DNA of 39,258 nt from the IMG/VR virus record IMGVR_UViG_2519899560_000023; one strand, 5' to 3'. The notes under the pieces were generated by a model. The model made no database searches. It saw nothing but the letters and a program-made list of their open reading frames with translations, and was not told where the DNA came from. The translations under genes were made by a program, and so were the position numbers. This document shows, one piece after another, positions 22,546 to 27,357 of the stretch; position 1 is the first letter of the stretch, and each line of letters starts with the position of its first letter. The stretch comes from a virus. Taxonomy: Duplodnaviria > Heunggongvirae > Uroviricota > Caudoviricetes.

Positions 22546-22791
22546 ATGAAAACCATCTTTATCAAACCCGCGCCGGGACGCCTGATTCGTGATCCCGACA
22601 CAATGCGCCCGCTGGCACAGGAGGGGGAGGAAAAGCCCTTTACGCCGTTCTGGTGTCGGCGTCTTGATGACGGCGATGTCATTCAGGCTGAAAAAGCCGC
22701 TGAAGAGGCTCCGGCTGTATCTGCGGATGCAACGACTGCGACAGAAAAACCGGTCGCCCAACCGGCATCCGATAAGGAGAAACCGCAATGA
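22546..22791 (+). CDS. small Mu gp38-like protein
   Basis: 81 aa; directly before sheath. Confidence 0.5.
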   Translation: MKTIFIKPAPGRLIRDPDTMRPLAQEGEEKPFTPFWCRRLDDGDVIQAEKAAEEAPAVSADATTATEKPVAQPASDKEKPQ

Positions 22792-24290
22792 TTAATTTTG
22801 ACGGGATCGGTAATGACCGCCGTATACCGCTGATTGAGGTTGAGTTTAATAACTCCATGGCTGTCACCGGCACTCCGGCACAGCGTCAGTGTGTGCTGCT
22901 GTTTGGTCAGGCGAGAATGAAAGAGAATGCCGTGGACGGTGCCGGTGTTCTGGATGTTCCGGTCAGGATCACCCGTGCGTCTCAGGCAACAGAACTCTGG
23001 GGGCGCGGCTCCATGATTGCCCTGATGGTGGCGGAATTTATCGCCATCAATCCTGATGCTGAACTGTATGCCATTGCTCAGGGGAACGGCACCGGACAGG
23101 CAACGGCTGCGGCCATGAATCTGACCGGAACGGTCACCCGTGACGGGATTGTTTATGCCTGCGTGGGGGGGCGGCGTTATACACTCCCGGCACCAAAAGG
23201 TAAGAAAGGCAAAGAACTGACCGACGAGCTGGCCGCGCTGATCAATGCCGATCCTGACGCGCCCTTCACGGCCTCCTCTGGTGCAGGAAGTGGTGATAAT
23301 GGCGCAGGTCTGAAAGGGTCTCTGGGGATCACCGCCCGCTTTACCGGTGAATGCTCCGTTCATGATGTGCGCCTGAACTATCACGACGGGGAAGCAACCC
23401 CGGAAGGAATACAGGTCGCTATAGCCTATCCGAAACAAAAAGCGGCTAACCCGGATATCACCCGAAGCGTGGCGGGTATGGGCGATCGCCAGTACAACTA
23501 TGTCGTCATGCCCTATAAGGATGATGCAAACCTGAAAATCATCAGTGATGAGCTTCTGAAACGCTGGGGACCGGCCAAAATGTCTGACGGCGTGCTGTGG
23601 CTGGCACATACCGGCACGTTTGGTGAGGTGCAGGCATTCGGGGCAAAACGCAATGATTTTCTGGCGACCTGCACATCCATTCCCAAAGCCCCTGAACCGG
23701 ATTACCTCTGGGCAGCGGCGGTCTGTGCCACCTGTGCACCCTCTCTGGGAGCAGATCCTGCGCGTCCGCTTCAGACGCTGGCGCTTCCGTCACGCATGGC
23801 CCCGGCTCCGGCCGATCGTCTGACGCGTGAAGAGCGTAACAGTCTGCTGTGGGGAGGGATTGCCACGGTCAGTGTGGCTGCCGGTGATGTGGTTCAGATC
23901 GAACGTCAGGTGACCATGTATCGCCAGAACGTGTACGGCGAAAGTGATCCCAGCTATCTGGATGTGGAAACCATCTACACCCTCTCCTGGCTGCGTTATT
24001 CCCTGCGTACTTTTATCACACAACGTTTTCCGCGCCATAAACTGGCTGATGACGGGACGCCCGTTCGTGCCGGTCAGAATATCGTGACGCCGGAGATCAT
24101 GAAGCTTCAGTTAATTTCGCTGGGTGAAGAGTGGGTGGAACTCGGGCTGGTCGAAAATCTGGACACCTTTAAAAAGAATCTGCTTGTGGAGCGTAATGCG
24201 TCAGATCGAAACCGTCTTGACGTGTTATGCACGCCGGATCTGGTTAACCAGTTCCGCTTCCTGGCAGCACAGATCCGTTTCATTTTGTGA
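22788..24290 (+). CDS. tail sheath protein (Mu L-like)
   Basis: 500 aa; precedes tube gene. Confidence 0.8.
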   Translation: MINFDGIGNDRRIPLIEVEFNNSMAVTGTPAQRQCVLLFGQARMKENAVDGAGVLDVPVRITRASQATELWGRGSMIALMVAEFIAINPDAELYAIAQGNGTGQATAAAMNLTGTVTRDGIVYACVGGRRYTLPAPKGKKGKELTDELAALINADPDAPFTASSGAGSGDNGAGLKGSLGITARFTGECSVHDVRLNYHDGEATPEGIQVAIAYPKQKAANPDITRSVAGMGDRQYNYVVMPYKDDANLKIISDELLKRWGPAKMSDGVLWLAHTGTFGEVQAFGAKRNDFLATCTSIPKAPEPDYLWAAAVCATCAPSLGADPARPLQTLALPSRMAPAPADRLTREERNSLLWGGIATVSVAAGDVVQIERQVTMYRQNVYGESDPSYLDVETIYTLSWLRYSLRTFITQRFPRHKLADDGTPVRAGQNIVTPEIMKLQLISLGEEWVELGLVENLDTFKKNLLVERNASDRNRLDVLCTPDLVNQFRFLAAQIRFIL

Positions 24291-24298
24291 GGTAAGGC

Positions 24299-24664
24299 AT
24301 GAGCGGAAAACAGTATCAGGGTACGGCCACTATCCGTGTGAACGGTCAGGAATACGAGACGCTTGAGGGGGCTACATTTTCTCCGTCTGGTTTTGAACGT
24401 GAAGTGGTGAAAGGCGCGAAAGTCTATGGTTACCGCCAGAAACCACGTGAAGCGACGCTGGACTGCAAATTTCCGGCAGGCGGAGAAGGTTCACCAGCCG
24501 CCGATGAAATCAACAACTGGACTGCGGTCACTATCGAGTTTGTGGCGGATACCGGCGAAGTCCACATGATGACGAAGGCCTGGAGCAGTGAACCGGCCTC
24601 GCTTGACGGTGGCGGGGAGATCTCCGTGAAGTTCGCCAGCGCCTCCAGTACCCGTGTTCAGTGA
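24299..24664 (+). CDS. tail tube protein (Mu M-like)
   Basis: 121 aa; between sheath and chaperone. Confidence 0.75.
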   Translation: MSGKQYQGTATIRVNGQEYETLEGATFSPSGFEREVVKGAKVYGYRQKPREATLDCKFPAGGEGSPAADEINNWTAVTIEFVADTGEVHMMTKAWSSEPASLDGGGEISVKFASASSTRVQ

Positions 24665-25155
24665 TCAGGAAAAATAAAATGACCACACGTAAGAAAAAAA
24701 CGGCAGTTTCCGAGGCAGCCGTGATGGAGGCAATCCGGGAAGCACTTGAGGGGGCTGATCCACGCACTGCCGGGCTGACAGAGCAACTGGCAAAGGGATA
24801 TGTGGATCTGCTTGATGGTCTGCCGTTTGGTGAGACCCGTGAATATCGTGTCACGTTCCGGGAACTGACAGCGAAAGACAGTATTGACGCAGAAGCAGAA
24901 GCCGAGCGCGTGGTGGAGACAAACAATGGCCCGATGCTGATAGCGTCTCCGTCGTTACGCGGTGTTGCACTGCTGCGCCGTCAGATTGCCGCAGTGGGAG
25001 ACATTGAAGGTCCGTTGTCACCCCGTCAGATTGGACAGTTAAGCGAGCGCGATCTCTCCCGCCTGATGGCAGCGGTCAGCCTGCTGGATACCGCGCTTGC
25101 CGGAAAGCTGGCAGCTGACCGGGGGCGATCAGGCGCAGTGTCGGGATCAGATTGA
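24661..25155 (+). CDS. tail assembly chaperone (Mu gp41-like)
   Basis: 164 aa; immediately upstream of tape measure. Confidence 0.65.
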   Translation: MIRKNKMTTRKKKTAVSEAAVMEAIREALEGADPRTAGLTEQLAKGYVDLLDGLPFGETREYRVTFRELTAKDSIDAEAEAERVVETNNGPMLIASPSLRGVALLRRQIAAVGDIEGPLSPRQIGQLSERDLSRLMAAVSLLDTALAGKLAADRGRSGAVSGSD

Positions 25156-25279
25156 AGAAGCGGCAATTATCCTGGGGATGGTGACAAAAAGCGGTCCGGA
25201 ATGGGCGCTTAACCTCCCCCTGTCGCAACTTTACCGGCACTGCCGACAGACAGAAAAAATCATCAGAACGAAGCAGTAA
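25067..25279 (+). CDS. candidate frameshift extension of the tail chaperone (alternate frame)
   Basis: Alternate frame open from 25067 to TAA 25277-25279, exactly filling the gap between chaperone stop and tape-measure start. Confidence 0.4.
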   Translation, partial: WQRSACWIPRLPESWQLTGGDQAQCRDQIEEAAIILGMVTKSGPEWALNLPLSQLYRHCRQTEKIIRTKQ

Positions 25280-25281
25280 GT

Positions 25282-27357
25282 ATGGCCCGAAATCTCAGAG
25301 CATCTCTGATAGTTGATTTGCTCGGCAATATCTCAGCCAAATCCCGCCAGTGGTCACAGGAGCTGGGGGCATTCTCACGCTCCGGCCAGGCGGGGCTGGG
25401 TGGCCTGGGAAATGCTGCCCGCCGTGCCGGGCAGGAAACAGATGTACTCGGAAGCAGGATGCAGCGCACGCTGGCCGGGGTGCGGGGCAGTATCCGCCAT
25501 GTCACTTCTGATTTTGACCGTCTTCAGGGCAGTATTACCGGCACCATCGGGCGGATCAGCAATCTTTACGGAATGCTGGCCGGTGGTGCTGCTGTATATG
25601 GCTTTAACCGGGGATTTATTCGCCCGGCAGCGGAGATGGAAACCTATATGATTCGCCTGAACTCCCTTTACAAAGGGGATCGGGCGAAAACTGATGATGT
25701 CCGCAGGTGGGCAATACAGAATGCGAAGGAAACCACCTGGGGGCTGGCTGGCGTCATGCAGGAATATACGTCCAGTCTGGGCTTTGGTATGAGTGACAGG
25801 GAGGCCCGAAATTTTGTCACCATGCTTCAGGATCAGGGTGCCGTGGGCGGCTGGTCACTGTCCGATGCACAGGGGGCATCCCTGCAACTGAAACAGATGT
25901 ATGCAAGAGGCAGTATTCAGGCGGCGGATGCAAATATTCTTGCCACCTACGGCATTAATGCCTACCGCGTGCTGGCTGATCGTCTGGGTGTGGACCAGAA
26001 AGTGGTCAGAAAACTTGGTGAAAAAGGGCTGCTTGGGCCGGACAGTATTCGCCTGTTATTTCAGACGCTGGCGGAACAGGCCAGGGGAGCACAAAAGGAC
26101 GCAATGAATTCCTGGAGTGGCCTGACGGCCATGATGGGTGACGTCTGGGACCAGTTTGCCCGGGATGTGATGGACAGTGGGCCATTTGAAAAACTGAAGG
26201 GTAATCTCAGGGGATTTCTTTCATGGGTTGACAGTGCCAAATCTGATGGCAGTTACCATTCCCTGGCGGAAAGCACGGCATCAGCCATGAACCAGGGCTT
26301 TGAGTATGCCCGTGATGCAGTGACTGGGTTTTATCAGGCGATCAGAAAGGTACGCGACACGCTTCAGGCTCTGCGGGATGCGGGCTATGGTGATGCGCTG
26401 GATCGCATTGGTCAGGGGGCACAGACCGCCGCGAAATACCTGCTGTACATGTATCTCGCCACCCGTGCCCTGAAAATGGCGCGGGCTGTCGGAACGGGGA
26501 TTATACGTCCGGGTGCTGCATTGCTGGGATACGGATTATCAGCGGCGGCCTTCCTGACCTCACCTTTCCGGCGCTCTCCTCCGGCCGGAACACCACCAGG
26601 CACATCTCAGGGACGAGGGCAACGTTTTATAAACTTTCTTACCGGGGTAAATCCGGCAGCCGTTCAGCCAGTACTTGTAACAAACTGGCCCACAGGAGGA
26701 CTGTCCGGCACCGGCGCGACCGATACATCCTCAGGCGGACGTCAGGGGCGGGGCCGCAGGAAACGCGGACCGGGGCGCGGAAGACCGGTCACGCCTCCCC
26801 TGCCACCGTCCCCAGTGCCACCGTCTCCCTCTTCTGGTGGGGCAGGGTTCTGGGGGCGCATGATGGGGCGCGCCGGTGGGTTACTTTCGTCTGTCGGTAG
26901 CCGCATGGGGCTGGGGCGTTTCTCCGGCTTTTTCCGCAGTGCCGGTGGACTGGCCGGCCGGCTGGGTGGAGGTGCCCTGTGGGCTGGCGCGATGGCAGCC
27001 CCGGTTCTGCTGGATGGCAGCGCCAGTGCCACAGACAAGGGAGAAGCGGTCGGCTCTCTTGCAGGCAGTATTGCCGGTGGTGCGCTGGGGGCGGCAGCCG
27101 GACCTGTGGGGATTGCCATTGGTTCTACGGTGGGCAGCTATCTCGGTAACTATCTGGGGGGATGGCTGACTGAAGCCTGGCAGAAATTACGGGGCAGTGA
27201 TGATGAAAGCAGTGGACAGGCGGTACAAAAAGCCTCTGCCCGTGTGGAGCTGGTTGCCCCGGAAGGGTGGCAGGCTCGCAGTATTGATATTGATGACACG
27301 TCCGGTCACGGACTGGATGTGAATGTCTGGAACGGAGGGAATTATGGCCTCTGGTGA
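25282..27357 (+). CDS. tail tape measure protein (Mu N-like)
   Basis: 691 aa; Gly-rich C-terminal region. Confidence 0.8.
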   Translation: MARNLRASLIVDLLGNISAKSRQWSQELGAFSRSGQAGLGGLGNAARRAGQETDVLGSRMQRTLAGVRGSIRHVTSDFDRLQGSITGTIGRISNLYGMLAGGAAVYGFNRGFIRPAAEMETYMIRLNSLYKGDRAKTDDVRRWAIQNAKETTWGLAGVMQEYTSSLGFGMSDREARNFVTMLQDQGAVGGWSLSDAQGASLQLKQMYARGSIQAADANILATYGINAYRVLADRLGVDQKVVRKLGEKGLLGPDSIRLLFQTLAEQARGAQKDAMNSWSGLTAMMGDVWDQFARDVMDSGPFEKLKGNLRGFLSWVDSAKSDGSYHSLAESTASAMNQGFEYARDAVTGFYQAIRKVRDTLQALRDAGYGDALDRIGQGAQTAAKYLLYMYLATRALKMARAVGTGIIRPGAALLGYGLSAAAFLTSPFRRSPPAGTPPGTSQGRGQRFINFLTGVNPAAVQPVLVTNWPTGGLSGTGATDTSSGGRQGRGRRKRGPGRGRPVTPPLPPSPVPPSPSSGGAGFWGRMMGRAGGLLSSVGSRMGLGRFSGFFRSAGGLAGRLGGGALWAGAMAAPVLLDGSASATDKGEAVGSLAGSIAGGALGAAAGPVGIAIGSTVGSYLGNYLGGWLTEAWQKLRGSDDESSGQAVQKASARVELVAPEGWQARSIDIDDTSGHGLDVNVWNGGNYGLW

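What the first reader, a model, noticed from the sequence alone, without database searches (positions are those of the whole stretch)
24661..25279. Probable programmed frameshift extending the tail assembly chaperone
The 127-bp gap between chaperone stop and tape-measure start is fully open in another frame (25067-25279), as in frameshifted tail chaperones of other tailed phages. The shift would be +1/-2, not the usual -1. A GGGGG run (25121-25125) followed by rare CGA is a plausible site, where tRNA-Gly could re-pair GGG to GGG two bases back.
Basis: partly seen in the sequence, partly recalled or inferred. Interest (0 to 1): 0.45.

Follow-up and report, generated by a model that had tools for sequence, protein, structure and literature searches.

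The report
Mu-type minus-two tail chaperone frameshift
This is an E. coli Mu-like prophage's copy of a trick already demonstrated in phage Mu: a small share of ribosomes slip back two bases at GG-GGG-CGA and make a longer form of the tail assembly chaperone, so it is real but an ordinary member of a known kind.

Summary
The window carries a Mu-like tail module: sheath, tube, gp41-like chaperone (24679-25155) and tape measure (25282-). The slip site CGG GGG CGA (25120-25128) is identical, in register, to the phage Mu site. GenBank AF083977 annotates the Mu site as a verified -2 frameshift, and its product is UniProt P0DJY4 (FS-gp41).

The 51-codon extension (25124-25279) is 53% identical to Mu's extension. 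In close relatives, substitutions move from frame-0 third positions upstream of the site to extension-frame third positions downstream. Of 171 gp41-family loci, 166 carry in-frame GGG CGA followed by a 46-52-codon extension that ends at the tape measure gene. Thirty-seven of 99 distinct sequences, Mu included, have no start codon that could express the extension separately.

One addition: a conserved RNA helix (25135-25144 with 25234-25243) begins 6 nt after CGA. It pairs in 99.7% of cells across 36 distinct relatives, and its 3' arm holds every invariant free synonymous site of the extension. A marine clade has an analogous hairpin at the same spacing that co-varies.

RefSeq leaves this prophage's gap unannotated. 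Verdict: a new member of a known kind, of low interest. No experiment exists for this prophage.

The parts
24299..24664 (+). Tail tube gene, the upstream neighbour that fixes the G/GT-type position
   Evidence: PF10618 Tail_tube, E=3.3e-31. RefSeq calls it 'phage tail tube protein'.
24679..25155 (+). Frame-0 tail assembly chaperone, Mu gp41 homologue: 158 aa, 16.8 kDa, stop TGA 25153-25155
   Evidence: PF23746 Gp41_Mu, E=7e-32. Exact match to E. coli 'phage tail assembly protein' WP_000213225.1. 49% identical to Mu gp41. Mass.
25120..25128 (+). Slip site CGG GGG CGA (motif GG_GGG_CGA = 25121-25128). Gly149 codon GGG is 25123-25125 and the rare Arg codon CGA is 25126-25128.
   Evidence: Identical nonamer in Mu. 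In-frame GGG CGA is present in 166 of 171 family loci, and the base before GGG is G in all of them.
25124..25279 (+). Extension reading frame entered after the -2 shift: GGC GAT CAG ... TAA, 51 codons. The fused product 24679-25125 + 25124-25279 is 200 aa, 21.8 kDa.
   Evidence: 53% identity to the Mu FS-gp41 C-terminus, E=1e-21. PHROG 12783, E=4e-38. The codon phase of substitutions switches to this frame downstream of the site. Product built.
25129..25134 (+). 6-nt spacer between the A-site codon and the downstream helix
25135..25144 (+). 5' arm (GCAGUGUCGG) of the conserved closing helix, the proposed frameshift stimulator
   Evidence: MFE folds. RNAalifold consensus. 99.7% of cells paired in 36 distinct relatives.
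25234..25243 (+). 3' arm (CCGGCACUGC) of the closing helix, lying inside the Y-R-H-C codons of the extension
   Evidence: The pair 25141/25237 takes U-G, C-G and U-A across relatives. Three of the only four invariant third positions of the extension lie in this arm, and the fourth is a Trp codon.
25174..25219 (+). Inner helices of the enclosed domain: GGGGA 25174-25178 with UCCCC 25215-25219, and GUCC 25194-25197 with GGGC 25203-25206
   Evidence: RNAalifold consensus with some two-sided changes. This support is weaker than for the closing helix.
25282..27357 (+). Tape measure protein gene. Its ATG lies 2 nt after the extension stop.
   Evidence: PF20155 TMP_3, E=1.9e-18. RefSeq calls it 'tape measure protein'.

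Best explanation
This is a programmed -2 ribosomal frameshift of the phage Mu type. Most ribosomes translating the gp41-like chaperone gene read CGG GGG CGA ... and stop at TGA 25153-25155, making the 158-aa chaperone. A small fraction pause with GGG (25123-25125) in the P site and the rare CGA in the A site. The reported figure for Mu is about 2%; it is unknown here. The mRNA then slips so that tRNA-Gly re-pairs with GGG at 25121-25123, and reading resumes at GGC 25124. This yields a 200-aa protein: the chaperone body plus a 51-residue C-terminal module ending at TAA 25277-25279, 2 nt before the tape measure start. A 10-bp helix whose 5' arm starts 6 nt after CGA (25135-25144 with 25234-25243) probably acts as the downstream stimulator. 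By analogy with lambda gpG/gpGT, the short form coats the tape measure protein and the rare long form uses its extra module to recruit the tube subunit. Shown here: homology, the identical site, coding constraint on the extension, family-wide conservation and helix conservation. Inferred: that slippage occurs in this prophage, its direction and rate, the role of the helix, and the protein functions.
For: - **Position and homology.** The locus sits between tube and tape measure genes, and the upstream ORF is Gp41_Mu.
- **Slip site.** The nonamer is identical and in register with Mu. The Mu record says 'verified -2 translational frameshift'. The Mu -2 product equals P0DJY4 'FS-gp41' and UIW09302.1, while the +1 product is absent from the databases. 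Reviews confirm -2 in Mu, at about 2.2%.
- **Extension is coding.** It is 53% identical to Mu's, E=1e-21. In 14 distinct close relatives, variable sites lie at frame-0 third positions upstream (43/50, against 12/50 and 7/50). Downstream of the frame-0 stop they lie at extension-frame third positions (15/19, against 6/19 and 2/19).
- **Family-wide conservation.** 166 of 171 loci (99 distinct sequences; Enterobacterales, Pasteurellaceae, Vibrio, Shewanella, Aeromonas, Marinomonas) have in-frame GGG CGA 3-24 codons before the frame-0 stop, followed by a 46-52-codon extension.
- **No independent start.** 37 of 99 distinct sequences have no ATG/GTG/TTG at or before the site. Only 3 of the other 62 have an SD-like motif. 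The window's TTG 25097 has none.
- **RNA structure.** The 120 nt after CGA fold better than shuffles in all 23 lineages tested (mean z=-2.13), against 0.06, -0.32, -0.99 and -0.16 for control segments. The closing helix is 99.7% paired, with U-G/C-G/U-A at one pair. The only invariant free synonymous sites of the extension lie in its 3' arm. The first helix of at least 5 bp starts 4-7 nt after CGA in 61% of distinct sequences, against 20% for random anchors. The marine clade's analogous hairpin has 5 of 8 pairs changed on both sides.
Against: - There are no experimental data for this prophage.
- Within the window alone, neither the open frame (21% of shuffles) nor the motif (1 found, 2 expected) exceeds chance.
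- Sequence cannot separate -2 from +1, since both reach the same frame.
- The window's own fold is only modestly better than shuffles (z about -2.0).
- 8 of the 10 closing-helix pairs never vary, so direct covariation in this clade rests on one pair plus synonymous-site invariance.
- The 99 sequences are phylogenetically related, so counts overstate independence.
- I could not read the primary Mu paper. I therefore know neither its exact junction evidence nor whether it already described a stimulator.
Confidence: 0.85

Rival explanations
1. A +1 ribosomal frameshift at GGG_CGA. The P-site tRNA-Gly moves forward from GGG to GGC while the rare CGA waits, giving a 199-aa product with junction ...DRGDQAQ... 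(one Gly fewer).
For: It reaches the same frame. The rare A-site codon is a classic +1 signal; CGA is 8 of 205 Arg codons here. Relatives with only four G's would re-pair only 2 of 3 bases after a -2 slip: AAG GGG CGA in 8 and TCG GGG CGA in 3 of the 99 distinct sequences.
Against: The identical nonamer in Mu is annotated as a verified -2 shift, and only the -2 product is deposited. Reviews describe it as -2. 88 of 99 distinct sequences keep a fifth G, which a +1 shift does not need. A 3' helix at a 6-nt spacing is the typical stimulator of backward slippage.
Confidence: 0.07
2. The downstream frame is a separate small gene with its own start (TTG 25097 or ATG 25178), as some phage annotations treat it (D108 gene 41.5; PHROG 12783).
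For: D108 annotates a 48-aa 'gp41.5'. PHROG 12783 is a family of such stand-alone calls. The window has TTG at 25097 and ATG at 25178 in that frame.
Against: No SD precedes TTG 25097. 37 of 99 distinct relatives, Mu included, have no canonical start at or before the site; the start positions of the others scatter from -44 to +2 codons, and only 3 have an SD. Residues conserved with Mu (C-R-x-x-I-E-x-A-A) lie upstream of ATG 25178.
Confidence: 0.02
3. Transcriptional slippage on the G5 run. RNA polymerase adds two G's or drops one, so that a subset of mRNAs encodes the fusion in frame.
For: A +2-G transcript would encode exactly the same protein as a -2 ribosomal shift. Assemblies with G4 that fuse the frames exist (L052, L116, Logan proteins).
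Against: Five G's is a short run for polymerase slippage (established knowledge, not tested here). Slippage would not require the invariant CGA or a helix at a fixed 3' spacing. Lineages with only four G's keep the arrangement. L116 carries a second G-run contraction that breaks the extension, which points to sequencing error.
Confidence: 0.03
4. There is no recoding. The 126-nt gap is non-coding spacer or a regulatory RNA structure that tunes tape measure expression, and the open frame is accidental.
For: The open frame and the motif are not significant within the window alone. The region is highly structured, which could serve mRNA stability or control of tape measure translation.
Against: The extension is conserved as protein at 53% identity to Mu, with third-position periodicity in its own frame. 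It stays open for 46-52 codons in 166 loci. No promoter, terminator or Rfam family is found in the gap.
Confidence: 0.01

Closest known systems
Phage Mu gp41 / FS-gp41 (UniProt P0DJY4; GenBank AF083977 Mu_41 / Mu_56), -2 programmed frameshift, Xu, Hendrix & Duda 2004 (PMID 15469818)
   Same: Same gene position. The chaperone is homologous (49% identity, PF23746). The nonamer CGG GGG CGA is identical and in the same register. The extension has the same length (51 codons) and is homologous (53% identity). The closing helix is the same: 3' arm CCGGCACUGC identical, 5' arm differing by two pair-preserving transitions.
   Different: It is a different phage lineage, a Mu-like prophage of Shiga-toxin-producing and other E. 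coli found in 227 of 5426 complete genomes. The N-terminus is longer. The frame-0 tail is 9 rather than 7 residues after Gly. In Mu the helix is extended by 3 more pairs, leaving a 3-nt spacer. There is no experimental verification and no database annotation of the long product.
Lambda gpG / gpGT tail assembly chaperone frameshift
   Same: The position between the major tail/tube gene and the tape measure gene is the same. It also yields two products sharing an N-terminus in a skewed ratio. This is the presumed functional logic: the short form binds the tape measure protein, and the extension of the long form recruits the tube subunit.
   Different: Lambda uses a -1 shift on a heptamer. I detected no sequence similarity. 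From memory, lambda is reported to need no downstream structure; this was not checked here.
P2 E / E+E' and the Phage_TAC_7 family (PF10109)
   Same: It is a contractile-tail phage chaperone pair at the same position. The window protein gives a weak PF10109 hit (E=1.1e-5).
   Different: P2 uses a -1 shift (established knowledge). The slip site is different.
E. coli dnaX -1 frameshift cassette (upstream SD, slippery heptamer, 3' stem-loop)
   Same: The architecture is a slip site followed by a 3' stem at a spacing of a few nucleotides. Many non-Mu-clade gp41 relatives also carry GGAG exactly 10 nt upstream of the slip site, as dnaX does (for the dnaX elements).
   Different: The direction is -1. 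The window and the Mu clade lack the upstream GGAG. The helix here is long-range, enclosing about 90 nt.
Arterivirus nsp2TF -2 frameshift (PRRSV)
   Same: It is a -2 shift.
   Different: It is eukaryotic, uses a protein trans-activator rather than an RNA structure (established knowledge), and is unrelated in sequence.

Membership tests
Mu-type gp41/FS-gp41 -2 frameshift cassette | Located between the tail tube gene and the tape measure gene of a contractile-tail (Mu-like) module | tested here: met
   Sheath 22788-24290, tube 24299-24664, chaperone 24679-25155, tape measure 25282-27357, each with its Pfam hit.
Mu-type gp41/FS-gp41 -2 frameshift cassette | Upstream ORF homologous to Mu gp41 | tested here: met
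   PF23746 Gp41_Mu, E=7e-32, 110 bits against a cut-off of 27. tblastn gives 49% identity to Mu.
Mu-type gp41/FS-gp41 -2 frameshift cassette | [quoted passage not shown] | tested here: met
   Window 25120-25128 CGG GGG CGA equals Mu L001 1858-1866.
Mu-type gp41/FS-gp41 -2 frameshift cassette | Overlapping ORF in the +1/-2 frame, open from the site to the tape measure start, with no conserved start of its own | tested here: met
   Open 25067-25279. No SD before TTG 25097, and starts are absent or unconserved across the family.
Mu-type gp41/FS-gp41 -2 frameshift cassette | Extension homologous to the C-terminal part of Mu FS-gp41 and under coding selection | tested here: met
   53% identity and 81% positives over 47 aa, E=1e-21. 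Codon-phase switch.
Mu-type gp41/FS-gp41 -2 frameshift cassette | A fusion protein is actually produced, at a few percent, by a -2 (not +1) shift | not testable with these tools
   Known for Mu only, from the record note and reviews. This needs mass spectrometry or a reporter assay for this prophage.
Mu-type gp41/FS-gp41 -2 frameshift cassette | Both products are needed for tail assembly and are absent from virions | not testable with these tools
   Inferred from lambda gpG/gpGT.
Lambda G/GT-type -1 frameshift | -1 shift on an X_XXY_YYZ heptamer | tested here: not met
   The -1 frame is closed (25119-25184 only). The open frame is +1/-2. The locus works like G/GT but is not a member of the -1 class.

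The most novel reading that the evidence does not exclude
The gp41 family carries a defined, conserved cis-stimulator for the only known bacterial/phage -2 frameshift: a helix whose 5' arm starts about 6 nt after the CGA codon. In the window and Mu clade it is a long-range 10-bp helix (25135-25144 with 25234-25243) that constrains synonymous sites in the Y-R-H-C codons. In marine clades it is a 64-nt-span hairpin of unrelated sequence with compensatory changes, there combined with a dnaX-like GGAG 10 nt upstream. If this is not already in the primary literature, which I could not read, it would give a mutationally testable model for how helix spacing and tension select -2 over -1 in bacteria.
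Probability: 0.4. Interest if true: 0.45.

Novelty: new member of a known kind. Interest (0 to 1): 0.2.

Why it matters
For annotation: RefSeq leaves the 126-nt gap of this common E. coli prophage empty (227 of 5426 complete genomes), and phage databases file the extension as a stand-alone ORF of unknown function (PHROG 12783). Both should be replaced by a joined CDS for a 200-aa long-form chaperone.

For recoding biology: the family-wide invariance of G_GGG_CGA across at least six bacterial families shows that the Mu -2 signal is an old, widely conserved cassette rather than a peculiarity of Mu. The helix placed 6 nt downstream offers concrete mutations to test.

As a discovery it adds little, because the mechanism has been known for Mu since 2004.

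Tried and rejected
- **Primary paper.** PMID 15469818 is not held. I relied on the GenBank note and three secondary papers.
- **Literature search for the literal motif GGGGGCGA.** It returned only unrelated papers.
- **First attempt to scan genomes with a 9-sequence alignment.** It failed for lack of a conserved stretch; a 5-sequence alignment worked.
- **RNAalifold on the marine clade.** It did not recover the hairpin because registers differ by a codon between sub-lineages. A hand-specified helix on the sub-set sharing one register did show covariation.
- **60-nt folds after CGA.** They show no excess structure in the window/Mu clade (z about 0); the signal appears only when the 3' arm about 100 nt away is included.
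- **Database searches on the region.** Rfam found no family. The promoter/terminator scan found nothing in the gap. NCBIfam had no model for the fused protein. The PDB sequence search found no relative.
- **In-frame G4 'fusions' (L052, L116, P0002, P0008).** I considered them natural single-product variants. I rejected them as evidence because L116 has a second G-run contraction that breaks the extension.
- **Structure prediction of the long form.** Not run, because it would not bear on the frameshift question.

Full report
**What is in the window.** The region 22788-27357 is a Mu-like contractile-tail module on the + strand. It holds the sheath gene (22788-24290; Phage_sheath domains), the tube gene (24299-24664; PF10618), a 158-aa ORF (24679-25155; PF23746 'Gp41_Mu', E=7e-32) and the tape measure gene (25282-27357; PF20155). 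The same 1.1 kb is 100% identical in many complete E. coli chromosomes, mostly O26/O103-type strains, and is present in 227 of 5426 genomes. RefSeq annotates the 158-aa 'phage tail assembly protein' and the tape measure protein, and nothing in between.

**Checking the observation.**
- The chaperone frame reads ... GAC CGG GGG CGA TCA ... TGA, with the stop at 25153-25155.
- The frame displaced by +1/-2 is open from 25067 to TAA 25277-25279, 2 nt before the tape measure ATG.
- The -1 frame is closed: it is open only over 25119-25184.
- GGGGG is at 25121-25125 and CGA at 25126-25128.
- CGA is the rarest Arg codon in the window's tail genes, at 8 of 205, and is rare in E. coli generally.
- The gap is 126 nt, and the better start is ATG 24679.

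On its own the window is not statistically remarkable. 21% of dinucleotide shuffles keep that 51-codon frame open. GGGGGCGA occurs once where two are expected.

**Link to phage Mu.**
- tblastn finds Mu, D108, SfMu and a range of Mu-like phages.
- In Mu (AF083977) the homologous gene ends ... GAA CGG GGG CGA GTG ... TGA. This is the same nonamer in the same register.
- I built the -2 and +1 products of Mu. The -2 product (…ERGGEW…, 188 aa) is exactly UniProt P0DJY4 'Probable tail assembly protein FS-gp41' and GenBank UIW09302.1. The +1 product is not in the 15-billion-protein collection.
- Reviews state that Mu uses -2 frameshifting, that it was the only known natural case in 2012, with about 2.2% efficiency, and that it is tandem -2 slippage on GG GGG CGA with the A-site tRNA-Arg (anticodon ICG) re-pairing better in the -2 than in the -1 frame.
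- I could not obtain the primary paper.

**Is the extension translated?**
- The window's extension (GGDQAQCRDQIEEAAIILGMVTKSGPEWALNLPLSQLYRHCRQTEKIIRTKQ) aligns with Mu's at 53% identity and 81% positives, E=1e-21. That is at least as conserved as the chaperone body.
- It matches PHROG 12783, a family of stand-alone 'unknown function' ORF calls. D108 likewise annotates a 'gene 41.5'.
- In 14 distinct close relatives (80-100% protein identity), variable sites upstream of the slip site sit at frame-0 third positions: 43/50, against 12/50 and 7/50 for the other two phases.
- Downstream of the frame-0 stop they sit at third positions of the extension frame: 15/19, against 6/19 and 2/19.

**Family-wide survey.** I collected 171 loci with a gp41 homologue from phage records, IMG/VR, GTDB genomes and metagenomes.
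- 166 have in-frame GGG CGA within the last 3-24 codons of the ORF, followed by a 46-52-codon extension in the +1/-2 frame; 99 of these sequences are distinct.
- Hosts seen in the named genomes and phages include Escherichia, Klebsiella, Raoultella, Pantoea, Brenneria, Pasteurellaceae, Aeromonas, Vibrio, Shewanella and Marinomonas, down to 33% protein identity.
- The preceding codon is CGG in 83, AGG in 5, AAG in 8 and TCG in 3. The invariant core is therefore G_GGG_CGA, with a fifth G in 88 of 99.
- GGGCGA was my search criterion, so its invariance among the 166 is by construction. What carries the evidence is that only 5 loci failed it. Two of these are contig ends (L051, L077) and one is a broken copy (L040). 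The other two (L052, L116) have G4 instead of G5, which fuses the two frames. L116 also has a second contracted G run that breaks the extension, so these look like homopolymer sequencing errors.

**Independent initiation is not the conserved mode of expression.**
- 37 of 99 distinct sequences, Mu included, have no ATG/GTG/TTG at or before the site.
- In the other 62 the first start lies anywhere from -44 to +2 codons, and only 3 have an SD-like motif.
- The window's TTG 25097 has none.

**Downstream RNA structure.**
- Folding the extension region shows a 10-bp helix closing an enclosed domain of about 90 nt: 25135-25144 GCAGUGUCGG with 25234-25243 CCGGCACUGC. It starts 6 nt after CGA.
- Mu has the same helix, with the 3' arm identical and the 5' arm GCGGUGCCGG, extended by three pairs. 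Its z-score against shuffles is -4.3 to -4.8. The window's is about -2.0.
- Across 23 lineages the 120 nt after CGA always fold better than shuffles (mean z=-2.13, with 12 below -2). Four control segments in the same loci average 0.06, -0.32, -0.99 and -0.16.
- In 36 distinct sequences of the window-Mu-Pantoea supergroup the helix is paired in 99.7% of cells. One pair takes U-G (16), C-G (15) and U-A (4), and another takes A-U (19) or G-U (17).
- Of 39 third-codon positions of the extension, only four are invariant. One is a Trp codon. The other three are the three non-covarying third positions inside the 3' arm.
- If 3 invariant sites fell at random among the 38 free third positions, all three would land in the arm's four sites with probability about 5e-4 (4/8436; my own arithmetic on the counts).
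- In lineages with unrelated extension sequences a helix again starts 4-7 nt after CGA: 61% of the 99 distinct sequences, against 20% for random anchors.
- For nine marine-clade sequences a hand-specified 8-bp helix at that position has 5 pairs changed on both sides. It is 90% paired against 35-54% when the partner is slid, and no shuffle of 500 reaches the observed score.
- A 5-9-nt spacing is what known 3' stimulators of backward frameshifting show, and spacing influences the choice between -1 and -2.
- No Rfam family, promoter or terminator lies in the gap.

**Mechanism, with shown and inferred steps marked.**
- Shown: homology to a verified -2 cassette with an identical slip site; coding constraint on the extension; family-wide conservation of the site; no conserved start; a conserved helix 6 nt downstream.
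- Inferred: in this prophage a few percent of ribosomes shift -2 at 25123-25125 and make a 200-aa (21.8 kDa) long form alongside the 158-aa (16.8 kDa) short form.
- Inferred: the helix and the poorly decoded CGA promote the pause and the backward pull.
- Inferred from lambda gpG/gpGT: the short form covers the tape measure protein, and the long form's extra module recruits the tube protein.
The two have the same length and differ at one residue.

**Rivals.**
- A +1 shift reaches the same frame and cannot be excluded by sequence. It is more plausible in the four-G variants, but the Mu annotation and the conserved fifth G count against it here.
- Transcriptional slippage would give the same protein as a -2 shift. 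It does not explain the invariant CGA or the positioned helix.
- A separate small gene is excluded by the start-codon survey.
- A non-coding gap is excluded by protein-level conservation.

**Verdict.** It is an unannotated orthologue of the phage Mu gp41/FS-gp41 -2 frameshift: a new member of a known kind, of low surprise to a specialist. The modest added value is the family-wide picture (G_GGG_CGA plus a helix about 6 nt downstream, plus an upstream GGAG in non-Mu clades). The practical consequence is that RefSeq and PHROG annotations of this locus should be a joined CDS.

Noticed in passing
L018-L023 (e.g. L018 1945-1953), L031 1576-1584, and L099-L106, L122, L126: Close relatives of the window's prophage have only four G's at the slip site (AAG GGG CGA, or TCG GGG CGA in Pantoea-type loci). 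After a -2 slip tRNA-Gly could re-pair only 2 of 3 bases. These lineages might shift +1 or shift less efficiently.
   Followed up: partly
L052 1510-1525 (Marinomonas rhodophyticola); L116 1340-1420; proteins P0002, P0008: Some copies have G4 instead of G5, which fuses chaperone and extension in one frame (junction ...RGD/E..., the '+1-type' sequence). L116 has a second contracted G run that breaks the extension, so these are probably homopolymer sequencing errors rather than natural single-product variants.
   Followed up: partly
Positions -16 to -13 relative to the GGG codon in 37 of 99 distinct family sequences (e.g. L026, L027, L028, L029, L050); absent at window 25107-25110: GGAG sits exactly 10 nt upstream of GG_GGG_CGA in all the non-Mu-type lineages that have it, and in none of the window/Mu supergroup. 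The control rate is 6% of random 22-nt windows. This resembles the upstream Shine-Dalgarno stimulator of dnaX. It may partly reflect a conserved Glu codon.
   Followed up: partly
window 25156-25281; L054 1458-1583 (E. coli E2865): RefSeq/PGAP leaves the gap unannotated. Locus tags jump from RS12980 to RS12990. Neither the -2 nor the +1 fused product of this prophage exists in the protein collection. Elsewhere the extension is filed as a separate ORF (D108 gp41.5, PHROG 12783).
   Followed up: yes
window 25277-25284: The tape measure ATG (25282) lies 2 nt after the extension-frame stop and has only a weak SD. Frame-0 ribosomes terminate 126 nt upstream, in front of the structured region. The structure might therefore also limit tape measure translation, or couple it to the frameshifted ribosomes.
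   Followed up: no
L054 1-592 (E. coli E2865 chromosome): In this otherwise identical prophage copy RefSeq marks the sheath gene as a frameshifted pseudogene, whereas the window's sheath ORF (22788-24290) is intact.
   Followed up: no
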